Positions 27,001 through 39,000 of a stretch of 64,000 nt of DNA are shown here, piece after piece (position 1 is the first letter of the stretch; the number at the start of each line of letters is the position of its first letter). A program made the position numbers. Source of the stretch: Candidatus Krumholzibacteriia bacterium (GTDB taxonomy: Bacteria; Krumholzibacteriota; Krumholzibacteriia; JAJRXK01); contig JBGPIA010000006.1 in assembly GCA_041484665.1 (NCBI GenBank), forward strand, positions 128,001 through 192,000, given 5' to 3'.

Positions 27001-30000
27001 CGCGGTGGTCACGGCCGTGCTTTCGCTCGCGATGGGAGAGCGCCCCCCGGCGGCGGCCCTGGGTGGTGCGGGGCTCCTGATCGTGGGCGTCTTGCTGGCA
27101 ACGCGATCTGCGGGGGGGCCTTCGCAGCAGCGACCGAGTTGGACGGGAGTTCCCGAGGCCGTGCTCAGCGCGCTGGCCTTCGGCACGATGTTCTGGCTCT
27201 TCTATTTCTTCGTCGAGCCGAAGGTCGGTTACGCCTGGCCCTTGATCCTGCTGAAGACGATGGCGGTCAGCGGTTCGCTTCTGGCGTACGCTTCGAGGCG
27301 CCGCCGGGAGGAGGGGCAGAGATTCGCCCTCGGGCCAGGAGTGGTCTTGCTCGCCGTTGGGGCGGCAGCCGCCGACACCCTTGCGTGGCTCGCCTACATC
27401 CGGGGAATGGGCTCCACCTATGCCACGATCGTGACGGCGGTTGCTTCGCTGTTCAGCGTCGTCACAGTGCTCCTGGCTTGGAAGTTCCTCCGCGAGCGCC
27501 TCGCGGTCCACCAGTGGGCGGGCGTCGCCGCAATCCTGCTGGGGATTCTCCTGGTCAGCTCCTAGCCCCGCCGCAAACCGGCAGTGATTGCCGTGGCTCA
27601 CCCGAACGCAGGCGCCCCTGGATCTCGCGGCATTCGGACCCGCCCGCTGCCGTGCCCCGCGCAACCGGCGGCAGGCCGCTCCGGGGGACTCCCGCCGGGC
27701 CTCAAGTTCTCCCTCGAGTTTGCCGATATGTCCTCCGACACGGGGCCCGCGCGCGGCGCCCGCGGCGCCCGCATGCGCCTGCACACCTGCATCGCCAGCG
27801 GAGGAGGGCTCCCCCTCATGAACGGACGTCGACAGCTGATTCCGACGCTTCTCGCTTGCACCACGCTGCTCCTTGCCAGGGCCCCGGCTCTCGCCACCGA
27901 GATCCCCAGCGACCCGGTCATCCAGCCCGCACCGACCGCCGAGGTACCGGGCGACCCGACCGGGTCAGCTGCCGCAACACCCCGGGCCGCGGCTGCGCAA
28001 GCCACCTCAGCAGCCGGCGATCAGCCCGACAAGTTGGCGGGGGAGCGCCCAGCCCAGCCCGCAGCGTTGCATTGGCTCACCGTGGACTGGGACGCCTCGC
28101 TGGCGTCCAAGTACCTGTTCCAGGGGATCGACTACAGCGACGGCAAGCCAGTGCTCCAGCCGGAGGTCACGGTTTCCGTGAGATCCTTCTCGGCCATCCT
28201 GTGGGTCAATCACGACCTCCACACGCAGCAGCCCAACGAGGTGGATCTCTTCCTCCAGTACAACGTTGGAATCCCGCGGCTCGACCTCACGACGGGGTAT
28301 GCGCGCAATCACTACCCCCACCGCGAAGGGTGGGATCCCTCGCAGGAAGTCTACCTCGATCTGTCCTGCGACGCCCCACTGAGCCCCTCGCTAAGCGTCC
28401 ATTACGATTTCGACGCCGGGAAGGGGAGTTACTCCACGCTCTCCCTCGACCGCGAGGTTCCCAATCCTCTGCGAACCATGTCCGCCGGGCTGAAGCTCTA
28501 CTACCAGAACAACTACTACGAGGCCACGGGCTTCCCGTCCCTCGAGCTCCATATCGGCACCGAGCAGGCCATCGGCCCGTTCAAGATCACCCCCTCGATG
28601 TCGCGCTTCATCACCTGGCCGAACGGAGGCTTCCGAGACGAGAACGCGGTGTCGGCCACCTGGTATCTCGCGGTCAACGTCGCCCAGACCTTCTGAGACG
28701 GGCGCGACTTATGTCACCGGCCACCGATGAGAGGCCCCGGAAGACGCCCTACGTCGTGGCGACGGGGTTCACGACGGCGTGCCTCGGGGACGAGCGCACC
28801 CTGCGCGAGTTCGTAGTCGGCGACCACGTCATGAACAAGATCCTCGCCAAGGGGGAAAACGCTGTCCTCTATCTCATCAACGACAGCTACGATCCCCTCA
28901 CCCCTCGGCAGCTGCGGGTGGGCGTTAACAAGGACGAGAAGCTATTCGGGCAGTTCGAGCCCTACTGCGGACGCCCGATTGCCGAGATCCCCGACCCATT
29001 CGGCTGCCACCAGAGCTACGCGCAGCACTTCGCCCGCGCGTTGCTGCGGCGCCTGCACGCGCTGGACATCCACCCAGTACTGGTGAACTCCTACGAGTCC
29101 TACGAGAAGGGTCACTACGCCGGATTCGTATCCTCGACCATCGCGAGCTATCACAGGATTCAGGAGATGCTCGCAGCGCGATTTCCACGCTACACGATGC
29201 GCAACCTGTTCCGGCCGCAGTGCCCGAAGTGCCGGTGCATCGACGCGACCAACGTTCGCGCAGTCGAGGGTCTTGCGCTCCGCTTCGACTGCGATCGGTG
29301 CGGGACGACGACGAGCGAGGAGTTCCCTGCGGTCCGAGGCAAGCTCAGCTGGAAGCTCGACTGCGCGGCGCGATGGAACCTCTACGGCATCGACATGGAG
29401 ACCTTCTCGAAGTCCCACATCGCGGAACTGGGGACGTTCGAGATCTCCCGGTTCATGTCGCTCAACTTCTACGGGAGCAAGGTACCGACGATCGTGAAGT
29501 ACGGAAGCGTGAAGATCCAGCGCGAGCTTTCCTACAAACTCCTGGAGATTCTGCCCCCGAAGATCTTCAAGCGGCTGTTCGTCTCCAACCTGGGCCGCGA
29601 TCTCGAACTGAACCGTGACTCGGTCGAAAGCTTCTGCCACAAGTTTGCGGTCAGGCCAGGGCTAAGTTACGTGGACTACGTTCGCCGCGAGCTGCCCCAC
29701 CGTGCGCTACACGAGAACAGACCGGCCGGGCCAGACTCGGGATCCCAGGCGCTGCCGGACACGGCCATTTCCGACGATGCGCTGGTGTCCTTCGGCAACC
29801 AATTCTCCCGCTTCTACTACTCCAAGGACTATGGACTGCGCTTCCCCGACTCCGGGACAATCGCGTCGGCCAACCAGGCCGCCGCGCAGACGGCCCGGCG
29901 CTGGATCCAGCGCGCGCTGACGATCCGCGAGGGTGTCACCGACACGCGCAAGAACGCTCACGCTCTCATCAAGTCGTTCTTGCTCGCGGAGGACAGTGCG

Positions 30001-36000: not shown

Positions 36001-39000
36001 GTCGAGATGGACGAGACCTACGTCGCGGAGGTCGTGCAGGTACTGCTGGAGAACGCGCTCAAGTTCTCCCCAGGCTGCAAGAAGATCCACGTGGCGGTCG
36101 CGACACGGCCGGGCGCAGTGACGCTCACCGTGGTCGACGGGGGGTGTGGTTTCCCGCCGGAATTCTCGCGCGAGATCTTCCGTCCCTTCACGATCATCGA
36201 CACGGCGCACCACGGGGAGGGGACCGCGCTCAGCCTCGCGAAGGCGAGCGCAGTGGTCGAGGCGCATGGAGGCTGCATCCGAGCGGAGAGCCAGGGGATC
36301 GGGCAAGGGGCGAGATTCATCGTCTCGTTCCCACCGGCGGTGCGGTGCCCGCAGGACGCCGAAAACGACCTGGCGCCGCAGGTCGCCGAGAGCCGCTCGC
36401 GGCCAAACCCCGTGCATTAGCCGACCCGCAGCCGCTGCCCCCGCTTTCTCGACGCGGTGACCGTGACGTCCGGCCGGGGCGGGGGCGACTCCCGCCCAGC
36501 GGGACCAGCACTCCCAGGGGCAGCCCGACATGCCAGCCAGCCGCGGGCGCACCGTGACCATCCTAGACCTGCAGGCCCGTGCTCCCGCTCGGTGGATCGT
36601 CGAGTTCGAGCTGCCGGTGAGCGGGAAGGGCGCTGTCGCCCGCGATGCCTGACCCGCTCCGGCGGCTGCCCAGAGCGCCATGTGGGCGCCTACGGACCGG
36701 GGCCGCGCTTCGTCACGGTGCTCGACAGCGCGCTCCCTCCCCTGGACCGTGACCTCGATCGCCTGGCCGAGTCGCTCCACTGGGTCACGCGCGAGCCCAG
36801 CTTCGCATGCCTCGCCCTGCGCTTCGTGGGCTTGGAGCACATCGCTCTCCCTGATCCCGACGCCATCTCTCTGGCCAGCAAGCTGCAGCGACTCCCGCGC
36901 TGGCTGGGGGTGCGGCGCGGGATCGCAATCCTACTGTGGCAGTTCCTGGGGCGACTCGTGGAGGTGGTCGGTTCGCTGGGCCCGTTGCTGTCGCTGCCGC
37001 GATCCCTGCGCGCGCCTTTGGGCGGCCGCAGCGCGCGCCTGGGCGAGAGCGTGTCCCTGGGGCCCGCGTTCGTGGGTCCCGCCCCCACGCTCTTGGCGCG
37101 CATCGGTCCCGTGCCACTCGTGGTCGACGTAGCGTTGGATCGCGACGCGGCCTGGCGGGCCGAGTTGGAGGAGCTGCTCACGACCTGCGCGCCGGCGGCG
37201 ACCGAGCACGGCGACGAGCTGGTGCTACGTGTGGAGGATCGGCGCACGGTCCTGGGCGACCGTTGGCACGCGTGACTCGCCAGGACCAGCTGCATGACGG
37301 GGTGAGAGGGGGCCGGAATGTCGTCGGGTCGCGAGCCCGGCGGGATCCTACGCCGCAGGAGCCAGTCTTTGAACTTAGACGCGACAGGGCGCGGAAGCGG
37401 TTCCTGGCGGCCGCGCCGCAGGACTAGCGGGTGCGCATCTGGTGGCGAAGTAAACCCCGCGGCCCCGTAGATCAGACGGATAGGTCGACGGTTTCCCAGG
37501 CGCCGCCAGCCCTGCGCCCCGGTGCGCTCGTTTCGCAGCCTTCGGACGTAAGGGAGGGTGTTGACGCTTCCACACCCTTCCCGGAGGCCGCCATGGGACC
37601 CATATCTGGAGCAATCACATGAACGCGATCTGGAGCAATCACATGAACGCGCGCCGAGCCATCGTCGGCCGCATCCTGGTCTGCTGCGCGGCGGCGCCCG
37701 CATTGGCGCAGACGCCGTCGGGAACGGCGTTCACCTACCAAGGGCACCTGGAGAGCAACGCCAGCCCAGCGGCCGGGAGCTTCAACATGGTGTTTACGCT
37801 CTGGAGCCATCCAACGCTCTCCGCGACGGCCTTTCAGGTCGGCCCCACGCTCACCTTCGACGGCGTCAGCAGCCCTCCCGCACCGATCACCGTGACGAAC
37901 GGCCTGTTCACGGTGCAGCAGGGTCTACCGCTCGTGCCATCCCGAGCGGACGGCCCAGTACCGGCTCTTCGAGCAGCACTTCGATCGCTCCCTGCTCGAG
38001 CACGAGGAGCCGAGCGTCCCCGGCACAGGGTACACCGGCCGAGTTCAACAGCCCCTACCGCCCCCAAGCAGTGAAGCTCGGGACCGAGATCATTTCGAGG
38101 ACGGTCGCGTTCGGGAAGAGCTAATCGTTCCAACCTCGAACTCCGAGGCCCCGCTGGTTGACGTGGACCGCGTTCTCAGGTCAGGGCGGGGCCGCTCATT
38201 CTTGCTGACAGCACCGGGGTTTGCGAGGCAGCCGCCGGCGCGTGTTCTCAGTTCCGAAAAGCGTCGCGGGCGGGGGACCGGATTGCAGCTTCGGAATCGC
38301 GCAGGAGCGTCTCGAAGTCCTGATTTCTGCCTTCGGGGACGCCCGGCGATTCGCTCGCTTCGGGGCGGGTGTCAGGTCACGTCGTAGCTAGAGCAGCCCG
38401 TCCCACCTCGTCACCCAACCGGGATACGCCGACGATCCCGCGAAAAATCTGGAACGCCTGGTGGCAGCGCCGAAGGTCGTTACTCCCTCGATCGGACCCC
38501 GCGCTCGCATGTTAAGATGTTCCCGGGTCCTTCTTACTCGACCGGGGGACTTCCGATGTCGACCGAGATCCGCACCCAGATCACAAGCTTGCTGCGGGAG
38601 CTGGAGATCGAGTCGACCAATCGTCGGGCCACCACCGAGCGCCTGCTCGAGGCACTCTACCCGGAGCTTCGCCGCCTGGCCGCGGCCCTCTTCCGGCAGG
38701 AGCGCGCGAGCCACACCCTGGAGCCCACCGCGCTCGTTCACGAAGCCTACATCCGGCTGGTCGACCAGGACGGCGCCGACTGGAAGAACCGCGCGCACTT
38801 CCTGGGCGTCTCCGCCCGAATCATGCGGCAGGTGCTGGTGGATCATGCCCGACATCGACTGGCGGAGAAGCGGGGCGGCGGCTGGGAACGGGTAACCCTG
38901 AGTGACGCGGTCGAGCTCGCCCGCGGGGACGACGTCGACCTCCTCGATCTCGAAGACGCCCTCGAGCGATTCGCCACCGTCGATCCACGGGCCGCCCGAG

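What a model noticed while it worked through the whole genome (the two positions that open the first line are those of the whole stretch)
28711..36420. Class I LysRS paralogue without HIGH/KMSKS heading a conserved sensor-kinase operon
g02220 (543 aa) is a divergent paralogue of archaeal-type class I lysyl-tRNA synthetase that exists beside the genome's ordinary class II LysRS (g01119) and heads a five-gene string: LysRS-like, periplasmic-binding-protein-like g02221, aldehyde dehydrogenase g02222, HAMP histidine kinase g02223, hybrid kinase g02224. I read it as a pseudo-synthetase that no longer charges tRNA but binds lysine or a related amino acid/aldehyde as the cytoplasmic sensing or activating part of a two-component signalling module. 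New would be a repurposed class I LysRS family, so far annotated only as 'hypothetical' or 'lysyl-tRNA synthetase class I' in uncultured bacteria.
Evidence so far: NCBIfam lysS_arch TIGR00467 only 127 bits (cut 147.6) and only over residues 6-270; best Swiss-Prot LysRS1 27-28% identity. 161 database relatives at E<=1e-10, the 120 listed 44-64% identical, mostly 470-547 aa, all from metagenomes/MAGs, none with an experimental name. Alignment of 16 members: invariant ..ATGFTT.FLGDERTLREF.. where LysRS1 has its HIGH loop, and ..YGDV.ISRELSY.. where the profile alignment to P. horikoshii LysRS1 (PDB 1irx) stops just before its KMSKS loop; the zinc knuckle (C171,C174,C194,C197) and the PDPxxCHxSY block are kept. 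Gene order LysRS-like>SBP>ALDH>HK(>HK) on one strand in this genome and in 19 of 36 loci of other species (Eisenbacteria, Nitrospirota, Competibact [...]
(Added by a program. Inside this text positions count along the whole contig: contig position 128,001 is position 1 of the stretch shown here. "Call 12" and the like, gene names such as g00115 and contig names such as C1 are that model's own, and its searches are not shown. The text may have been shortened before it was handed on; [...] marks where a part breaks off. The agent that wrote the report below was given it as the finding of a first reader that could run no searches.)

Follow-up and report, generated by a model that had tools for sequence, protein, structure and literature searches.

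The report
ATP-less lysine synthetase paired with dehydrogenase
A full-length copy of a lysine tRNA-charging enzyme has lost its ATP site but kept its amino-acid pocket and travels with one special aldehyde dehydrogenase, so the pair probably makes an unknown small molecule, which in bacteria may be an exported cell-to-cell signal.

Summary
Observation confirmed and sharpened. g02220 (28711-30342) folds like class I LysRS over its whole length (VIA Z 29.9). It has lost four ATP-site elements: HIGH, the SG loop, the GxD/E motif and the KMSKS loop (about 11 residues deleted). It keeps the lysine-pocket residues and zinc knuckle, and gains a family-wide Trp-to-Cys. All 11 carrier genomes tested have class II LysRS. 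The steady partner is the ALDH, not the kinase: 26 of 452 sampled genomes carry both, none only one, and an archaeal contig has the pair with no signalling gene. The cassette is wider than reported (EamA transporter and porin upstream). Relatives swap in unrelated receptors and porins, and 11 of 47 add NNMT-type methyltransferases. Best reading (0.42): a Lys-tRNA-consuming biosynthetic pair making an exported amine signal. Substrate, product and tRNA use are untested. The scan noted this family twice before on other genomes; ten paper searches listed no description.

The parts
26708..27565 (+).
   Evidence: PF00892 E 9.8e-20; homologue in 20 of 47 related loci, both bacterial clades
27818..28696 (+). 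TorF/Gcw_chp-like putative outer-membrane porin, ending 14 nt before g02220
   Evidence: PF09694 E 5e-5, just under cut-off; TIGR02001 weak; homologue in 11 of 47 loci, a different putative porin in 16 others, never both
28711..30342 (+). g02220: full-length class I LysRS paralogue without an ATP site (ordered to about residue 475, disordered tail)
28765..28809 (+). G19-x-T21...D27-E28-R29-T30-L-R32-E33: replaces TPSG..HIGH; E33 aligns with LysRS1 E41
   Evidence: alignment to 1irx; column counts
29221..29301 (+). zinc knuckle C171, C174, C194, C197 in the CP1 insertion
   Evidence: 120 of 120 rows each
29350..29418 (+). W214-K-L-D-C218-A-A-R-W222...F-S-K-S-H236: W214 kept; C218 replaces a Trp invariant in LysRS1; the GxD/E motif before H236 is lost
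   Evidence: C in 120 of 120, 64 of 66 and 7 of 8, versus W in 72 of 72 LysRS1 rows; G in 70 of 72 and D/E in 70 of 72 LysRS1 rows, absent from the family's commonest residues
29500..29556 (+). Y264..P282: site of the deleted KMSKS loop; Y264 aligns with LysRS1 Y268
29851..30120 (+). retained C-terminal helical (anticodon-binding-type) domain with near-invariant R406, R438, G446; the LysRS1 G-P-R arginine is replaced
   Evidence: structural alignment 9..469 to 1irx 17..523; counts
30353..31207 (+). family-3 amino-acid-type solute-binding lipoprotein; no ABC permease or ATPase gene in the string
   Evidence: PF00497 E 1e-32; invariant D60, E124, R129, D210 in 16 of 16 rows
31207..32658 (+). dedicated ALDH-family partner: catalytic C282 (32050-32052); E268>D248, K192>R173, E399>G374; invariant D430, E434, E438, W440
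   Evidence: PF00171; 32 of 32 rows; ALDH fold, TM about 0.85
32673..34589 (+). membrane sensor histidine kinase (2 hydrophobic helices, HAMP, H297, HATPase)
34579..36420 (+). cytoplasmic REC-GAF-HisKA-HATPase (H378); replaced by REC-(GAF)-GGDEF-EAL in several relatives

Best explanation
g02220 and the ALDH form a two-enzyme biosynthetic core; the rest is the export and receptor shell of a quorum-sensing-like cassette. SHOWN (sequence and model): no canonical ATP site; lysine-type pocket and tRNA-contact domains kept; housekeeping LysRS present; ALDH always co-present, with its catalytic Cys. INFERRED step 1: as in cyclodipeptide synthases, activation comes from aminoacyl-tRNA, so g02220 binds Lys-tRNA(Lys) made by the ordinary LysRS and discharges the lysyl group onto a small acceptor held where ATP used to bind (new D27-E28-R29). 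INFERRED step 2: the ALDH carries out the redox step on an amino-aldehyde/thioester intermediate, either oxidising the acceptor or product aldehyde or reducing an activated lysyl group to lysinal; the direction is open. INFERRED step 3: the cationic product, methylated in some Armatimonadota, leaves through EamA and the porin, binds the SBP, and the SBP sets the HAMP kinase, which relays to the REC-GAF kinase or to c-di-GMP enzymes. My odds by step: not a canonical tRNA-charging enzyme 0.95; works with the ALDH 0.9; pair is biosynthetic 0.6; aminoacyl-tRNA is the donor 0.45-0.5; product is what the cassette's receptor senses 0.55.
For: ATP site: four elements lost. Pocket and tRNA side kept: G19, T21, E33, D58, D61, K211, W214, R221, E230, Y264, four Cys, C-terminal domain. 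New invariant residues D27/E28/R29 (119 of 119) and C218 argue for selection on new chemistry. One clade of 68 of 68 rows, support 1.0. Class II LysRS over cut-off in 11 of 11 carrier genomes tested. ALDH co-presence: same 15 of 251 and same 11 of 201 genomes; ALDH within the fetched flank in 39 of 47 loci and elsewhere in the genome for the other 8; trees largely congruent (rho 0.87, 9 shared supported splits, 1 conflict, 30 loci). Archaeal contig L052: NTase-like>paralogue>ALDH>Zn-ADH>MBL hydrolase, no signalling gene, beside a LysRS1 gene with HIGR. Accessories: NNMT/PNMT methyltransferase in 11 of 47 loci, tandem in 3; EamA 20 of 47; two unrelated porins 27 of 47; unrelated receptors. Precedent: CDPSs lost HIGH, gained a new signature and use aminoacyl-tRNA (PMC2922099, passages).
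Against: No substrate, product, tRNA binding or catalysis was tested. P0022 fuses the whole domain to an EAL phosphodiesterase domain (1 of 120), as a sensor would. D27/R29 are not shared by the deepest clade (A/G and N there), so they are not a universal catalytic motif. The LysRS1 G-P-R arginine is gone and net charge is not raised (median -1 versus -4). The ALDH of the two bacterial clades has E268>D, E399>G and N169 in only 27 of 32, so it may be slow or altered. EamA is in under half of the loci, absent from L052, and its direction is unknown. The SBP keeps the carboxylate-binding Arg, which fits plain amino-acid sensing equally well. Co-occurrence and tree congruence also follow from co-transfer; the profiles were built partly from the same genomes and only 6-7 candidates per genome were scored. 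The archaeal arrangement rests on one fetched contig.
Confidence: 0.42

Rival explanations
1. Non-catalytic ligand sensor or regulatory subunit (first reader; HisZ- or GCN2-like logic, recalled). It binds lysine or (un)charged tRNA(Lys) and controls the ALDH and/or the kinase or c-di-GMP enzyme.
For: ATP site dead and pocket intact; R29 sits where it could replace ATP phosphate contacts next to a free carboxylate (inference); EAL fusion P0022; signalling gene in 40 of 47 loci.
Against: Receptors have extracytoplasmic or membrane inputs and differ between clades; no signalling gene at L052; methyltransferase, ADH and transporter accessories are unexplained; the EAL of P0022 is 38-42% identical to cassette EALs and could stem from a deletion within a cassette (not resolved).
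Confidence: 0.25
2. Uptake and disposal module: porin, SBP and EamA bring in or sense an external lysine analogue or amino-aldehyde, and the paralogue plus ALDH break it down or strip it from mischarged tRNA (trans-editing).
For: The same gene set fits inward flow; TonB receptor and ABC-type SBP follow the pair in L022; ADH+ALDH in L052 is a standard oxidation series; C218 alters the side-chain pocket.
Against: Outputs are kinases and c-di-GMP enzymes, and no conserved transcription factor clusters with the loci; no ABC permease in the window string; tandem methyltransferases suit tailoring better.
Confidence: 0.17
3. Active ligase with another source of activation: the ALDH oxidises an aldehyde to a Cys-thioester (its general base is weakened) and the paralogue hands the acyl group to lysine or to tRNA; or ATP binds in a non-canonical way.
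For: E268>D invariant in 32 of 32; NTase-like gene overlapping the paralogue start in L052; BshC, the second structural match (Z 19.5, rmsd 3.2, 271 aligned), is a ligase whose activated donor is unknown (PMC5790435, passages).
Against: Deep-clade ALDHs keep E268; NTase seen in one locus only; a thioester deep in an ALDH funnel is hard to reach (inference).
Confidence: 0.12
4. A divergent but ordinary second LysRS.
For: Full-length LysRS1 architecture; some databases label members 'lysyl-tRNA synthetase class I'.
Against: All four ATP elements lost; housekeeping class II LysRS in 11 of 11; 1 of 208 genomes in its own phylum; fixed ALDH partner.
Confidence: 0.03

Closest known systems
Class I lysyl-tRNA synthetase (P. 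horikoshii, PDB 1irx; PF01921, TIGR00467)
   Same: Whole architecture (Z 29.9, rmsd 6.8, 436 aligned); residues aligned with G27, T29, E41, W218, Y268 kept, H240 as H or Y; zinc knuckle.
   Different: HIGH, SG loop, GxD/E and KMSKS lost; W222>C; G-P-R arginine lost; below the TIGR00467 cut-off; separate clade; ALDH partner.
Cyclodipeptide synthases (AlbC family)
   Same: Class I aaRS-derived, HIGH lost, new signature gained, aminoacyl-tRNA as donor (PMC2922099, passages read). This is the working model.
   Different: CDPSs derive from TyrRS/TrpRS-like catalytic domains and carry GxSxxN; this family derives from LysRS1, keeps CP1 and the C-terminal domain, has GxT, and needs an ALDH.
BshC (PDB 4wbd)
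   Same: Second structural match, above CysRS and GluRS (Z 19.5); aaRS-like Rossmann ligase never reconstituted, activated donor unknown (PMC4360819, PMC5790435, passages).
   Different: 10% identity; no C-terminal domain match; different pathway. That BshC lacks HIGH/KMSKS is recalled; the primary paper was not held.
MshC and the MetRS paralogue of Aravind et al. 2010
   Same: aaRS paralogues used in small-molecule synthesis, with strictly associated redox enzymes, transporters and periplasmic binding proteins (PMC2922099, passages).
   Different: MshC adenylates its amino acid with ATP; this family has no ATP site.
Quorum-sensing cassettes LuxS/LuxPQ and RpfF/RpfC/RpfG, and glutamyl-tRNA reductase HemA (all recalled, no call)
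   Same: Synthase + SBP-gated kinase or HD-GYP/EAL output; HemA diverts an aminoacyl-tRNA through a Cys thioester to an aldehyde.
   Different: No homology of the synthase to any of them was found; signal unknown.
HisZ / GCN2 HisRS-like domain (recalled, no call)
   Same: Synthetase-derived non-catalytic binding module; model for the sensor rival.
   Different: Class II derived; this family has gained new invariant active-site residues.

Membership tests
Class I LysRS (enzyme) | HIGH motif | tested here: not met
   HVGN aligns with DERT; HxG[NH]-like in 0 of 66, 0 of 8, 69 of 72 LysRS1 rows
Class I LysRS (enzyme) | KMSKS loop | tested here: not met
   about 11-residue deletion; 0 of 74 versus 62 of 72
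Class I LysRS (enzyme) | GxD/E ribose-binding motif (role recalled) | tested here: not met
   G 70 of 72 and D/E 70 of 72 in LysRS1; S/N/T and A/S/K/N in the family
Class I LysRS (enzyme) | Lysine-pocket residues E41, W218, H240, Y268 (roles recalled) | tested here: met
   E33 119 of 119, W214 120 of 120, H236 118 of 120, Y264 120 of 120; H236 is Tyr in 35 of 66 wider rows; neighbouring W222 is Cys
Class I LysRS (enzyme) | Rossmann + CP1 zinc + C-terminal anticodon-domain architecture | tested here: met
Class I LysRS (enzyme) | TIGR00467 curated cut-off | tested here: not met
   127.2 versus 147.55
Class I LysRS (enzyme) | Charges tRNA(Lys) with ATP | not testable with these tools
   needs assay
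Cyclodipeptide synthase | GxSxxN signature with catalytic Ser after strand 1 | tested here: not met
   G19-F-T21-T; T in 118 of 119; signature from PMC2922099
Cyclodipeptide synthase | Family profile or closest fold is CDPS | tested here: inconclusive
   Pfam gives PF01921; closest folds are LysRS1, BshC, CysRS; an unlisted family is not excluded
Cyclodipeptide synthase | Uses aminoacyl-tRNA as donor | not testable with these tools
   inferred only
ALDH superfamily (partner) | Fold and catalytic Cys | tested here: met
   TM 0.83-0.86; C282 32 of 32
ALDH superfamily (partner) | General-base Glu268, Glu399, Lys192, Asn169 (numbering recalled) | tested here: inconclusive
   D248, G374, R173 in 32 of 32, N150 in 27 of 32; deep-clade P0276, P0277 and P0279 show Glu at both acidic positions, read by eye
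Any named ALDH equivalog (NCBIfam) | Curated cut-off | tested here: not met
   best 118.9 bits versus cut-off 650
Quorum-sensing system | Co-encoded synthase, export route, receptor and output | tested here: inconclusive
   transporter, porin, SBP, kinase and output present; synthase role inferred
Quorum-sensing system | Self-made diffusible signal, density-dependent response | not testable with these tools
   needs culture or heterologous expression

The most novel reading that the evidence does not exclude
The pair is a two-component lysyl-tRNA-diverting enzyme (an ATP-less class I LysRS scaffold plus an ALDH, a lysine counterpart of glutamyl-tRNA reductase) that makes a new class of lysine-derived autoinducer. 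Signal output would be tied to the charged-tRNA pool, clade-specific methylation would give dialects, and the same core would serve metabolism in archaea.
Probability: 0.25. Interest if true: 0.92.

Novelty: new variant of a known kind. Interest (0 to 1): 0.74.

Why it matters
I found no description of a repurposed class I LysRS in the papers searched. The family spans several bacterial phyla and at least one archaeal contig, is mislabelled or unlabelled in databases, and has a fixed enzyme partner. If it uses Lys-tRNA, it is an independent origin of ATP-free, tRNA-dependent chemistry from a class I synthetase, apart from CDPSs, and a test case for how BshC-like ATP-less ligases work. If the product is the SBP's ligand, it is a new cell-to-cell signal in largely uncultured bacteria. 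The cassette brings its own read-out (SBP plus kinase), so it can be tested in E. coli.

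Tried and rejected
Complex prediction ALDH(15-468) + paralogue(10-475): no verdict, score 0.00 against a mark of 0.32; not evidence either way. RNA runs: none was listed. Rfam on the window: 0 matches; related loci were not scanned. tRNA genes: 5 calls in 48 loci, one tRNA-Lys (L036), so no dedicated tRNA. Viral contigs: none. Plasmids: 2 weak partial matches. Longer fused forms (959-2735 aa): none at E<=1e-40, weak evidence. Single-protein locus search found nothing; the alignment search worked. An SBP domain fused into clade-B sensors: not detected. No CDPS among the 50 rows shown in either VIA list. C218 aligns with the CysRS WHIEC cysteine only in a weak profile alignment (probability 30%); the other CysRS zinc ligands were not found, so a CysRS-type zinc site is not claimed. 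W440 as the counterpart of plant aminoaldehyde dehydrogenase Trp459 is recalled; the fragment search did not show that alignment. The SBP's best PDB matches are ancestral and Gln/Arg-type binders and do not name a ligand. The ESM Atlas gave only LysRS-named clusters. Deep-clade neighbourhoods: only one contig could be fetched. Paper searches (listings and abstract starts) gave nothing on this family; most subscription papers and all supplements were not seen, and the 1irx and BshC primary papers were not read.

Full report
OBSERVATION. The ORF at 28711-30342 encodes 543 aa. It scores 148 bits on PF01921 and 127.2 on TIGR00467, below the cut-off of 147.55. The genome has a class II LysRS over cut-off and two tRNA-Lys genes. 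The AlphaFold model (mean pLDDT 89) matches P. horikoshii LysRS 1irx from residue 9 to 469 (Z 29.9, rmsd 6.8, 436 aligned; Foldseek E 2.4e-22), so the C-terminal domain is kept although sequence profiles stop near residue 270. Gaps from the porin onward are 14 nt or less.

WHAT IS LOST AND KEPT. In the alignment to 1irx, HVGN falls on D27-E28-R29-T30. Among the 120 listed homologues, which were not chosen by motif, D27, E28, R29, R32 and E33 are invariant in all 119 rows that cover them. I then aligned 146 proteins of about full length (440 aa or more; locus ORFs up to 560 aa): 66 rows of clades A+B, 8 of a deeper clade C, and 72 others treated as true LysRS1. Caveats: the 66 were picked by the GD-x-R motif, so their D27/R29 counts are circular; six are duplicates or near-duplicates of locus rows; clade C was picked by hand. 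The non-circular results are these. The stretch Y264..P282 is 19-20 residues (clade C 16-20) against a median of 30, and a KMSxS-like word occurs in 0 of 74 versus 62 of 72. The Ser-Gly before HIGH and the GxD/E before H240 (about 70 of 72 each in LysRS1) are gone. Kept are G19, T21, E33, D58, D61, K211, W214, R221, E230, Y264 (A+B), the four zinc cysteines and G446. H236 is His or Tyr. One new residue unites all three clades: C218 (64 of 66, 7 of 8) where LysRS1 has Trp in 72 of 72. The roles of the 1irx residues are recalled; searches found no paper listing them. A tree of 98 rows (six duplicates dropped, first 30 of the 72 LysRS1 rows used) gives one clade of 68 of 68, support 1.0, on a long branch.

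THE FIXED PARTNER. Of 47 loci from other genomes, 39 have the ALDH within the fetched flank; the other 8 genomes have the orthologue elsewhere at E<=2e-131. In a sample of 251 genomes from the phylum of G001 (record title Abditibacteriota; clade B), 19 matched the paralogue profile, 15 strongly over the full length and 4 weakly in part (not examined; probably LysRS1). Exactly those 15 matched the ALDH profile, 13 on the same contig; three of these ALDH matches had one stop inside, not examined. In 201 genomes from the phylum of G004 (Eisenbacteria) the same 11 matched both, plus one weak partial paralogue match. The window's own phylum has it in 1 of 208. These genomes are kin, the profiles were partly built from them, and only 6-7 candidates per genome were scored. 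Trees of the two proteins agree (rho 0.87; 9 shared supported splits, 1 conflict), which co-transfer would also give. Class II LysRS is over cut-off in 11 of 11 carriers tested. The ALDH keeps its catalytic Cys (32 of 32) but has Asp, Arg and Gly at the positions of E268, K192 and E399, plus invariant D430, E434, E438 and W440. By analogy with plant aminoaldehyde dehydrogenases, where acidic and aromatic channel residues select cationic aldehydes (PMC11362210, passages), this hints at an amino-aldehyde; the residue correspondence is inferred.

THE VARIABLE SHELL. Clade A (Eisenbacteria, Nitrospirota, Gammaproteobacteria, this genome): paralogue>SBP>ALDH in 19 of 47 loci, then a HAMP kinase in 18, then REC-GAF-kinase or REC-GGDEF-EAL. 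Clade B (Armatimonadota, Abditibacteriota): membrane sensor-GGDEF-HD-GYP>paralogue>a different putative porin, with ALDH, EamA and an NNMT/PNMT-family methyltransferase on the other strand (methyltransferase 11 of 47, tandem in L024, L028, L045). No SBP similarity was found in these sensors. A transporter (20 of 47), a porin (27 of 47, two unrelated kinds) and a signalling gene (40 of 47) recur, partly with non-homologous parts; many contigs are short, so these are lower bounds. Clade C: contig L052 carries L18e, L13, S9 and RpoK genes, so I read it as archaeal. There the paralogue is followed after 1 nt by an ALDH, then a Zn-ADH and an MBL hydrolase, with a nucleotidyltransferase-like gene upstream and a separate LysRS1 gene opposite; no signalling gene lies in 13 kb. 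Two more clade C proteins share longest-contig lengths with ALDH homologues (118235 and 16802), which is indirect evidence only.

MECHANISM. The pattern is: ATP site removed, amino-acid pocket and tRNA-side domains kept, new invariant residues, an inseparable redox enzyme, and optional tailoring and export genes. CDPSs show that a class I synthetase can lose HIGH, gain a new signature and run on aminoacyl-tRNA (PMC2922099; abstract, first part and passages). I therefore favour a Lys-tRNA-consuming biosynthetic pair whose product, in bacteria, is exported and read by the SBP-kinase (0.42). Steps beyond the loss of the ATP site and the ALDH link are inferred. Against it: P0022 is a whole paralogue fused to an EAL domain (1 of 120; origin unresolved); D27/R29 are not universal; the G-P-R arginine is lost; the SBP keeps the Arg that binds amino-acid carboxylates, though it also has a new invariant Glu beside it; EamA direction is unknown. 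Rivals: sensor or regulatory subunit 0.25, uptake and disposal or editing 0.17, ligase with another activation route 0.12, ordinary LysRS 0.03.

COMPARISON. It is a LysRS1 homologue but fails membership as a LysRS enzyme on three motif tests and the cut-off. It may work like a CDPS but lacks the CDPS signature. BshC is the second structural match (Z 19.5) and its activated donor is unknown (PMC4360819 and PMC5790435, passages; PMC5372718, passages, added nothing; PMC9976931, passages gave nothing on LysRS1 residues). LuxPQ, RpfF/C/G, HemA, HisZ and GCN2 are recalled analogies.

NOVELTY. Ten searches listed no paper on this family; subscription papers and supplements were not seen. The scan noted the family twice on other genomes (e1-4344727, e1-7441223); those notes agree on motif loss and the ALDH link and are not independent proof. 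Added here: genome-level co-presence counts, C218, the archaeal non-signalling locus, the methyltransferases, the swapped receptors and porins, and the EAL fusion. Verdict: real, a new variant of the repurposed-synthetase kind, interest 0.74.

Noticed in passing
window 22799-24730 (-): 643-aa lipoprotein-like ORF with a thiol-activated cytolysin domain (PF01289, E 9e-29) and a C-terminal laminin-G/ConA domain; looks like a pore-forming cytolysin-family protein.
   Followed up: no
window 38517-41776 (+) and 43125-46511 (-): ECF sigma factor followed by a Ser/Thr kinase-TPR protein, and a long repeat-rich ORF with a CHAT-like C-terminus (read by eye, not scanned).
   Followed up: no
window 26000-36000: GC dips to 61-67% in 2-kb bins against 69.5% for the genome; with 1 of 208 carriers in the phylum this fits horizontal gain.
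   Followed up: partly
P0022: Natural fusion of the whole paralogue to a C-terminal EAL domain; contig not fetched.
   Followed up: partly
L052 6510-8113 (-): The LysRS1 gene beside the archaeal cassette has a frameshift near an A-run at about 7950; sequencing error or real, not resolved.
   Followed up: partly
L052 10544-11386 (+): LAGLIDADG endonuclease-HTH gene between the S9 and RpoK genes.
   Followed up: no
L027 12077-12940, L028, L032 (+); L016 7922-8830 (-): 3-hydroxyisobutyrate-dehydrogenase-family gene near the paralogue in 4 of 47 loci; a possible further redox accessory.
   Followed up: partly
L022 2368-8338: Nitrospiria variant: porin>paralogue>ALDH>TonB-dependent receptor>ABC-type SBP, with a divergent HAMP-PAS-GGDEF gene; no family-3 SBP orthologue found in that genome.
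   Followed up: partly
L036 12866-12938 (+): tRNA-Lys(CTT) just after the paralogue-porin pair; 1 of 48 loci, possibly an integration site.
   Followed up: no
L008 9381-9872 (-): Allene-oxide-cyclase/dirigent-like gene divergent from the paralogue, single locus.
   Followed up: no
L010 and L062 (G662); L026 and L063 (G221): Split cassettes: the paralogue lies apart from SBP-ALDH-kinase or ALDH-EamA-sensor, yet both halves are kept.
   Followed up: partly
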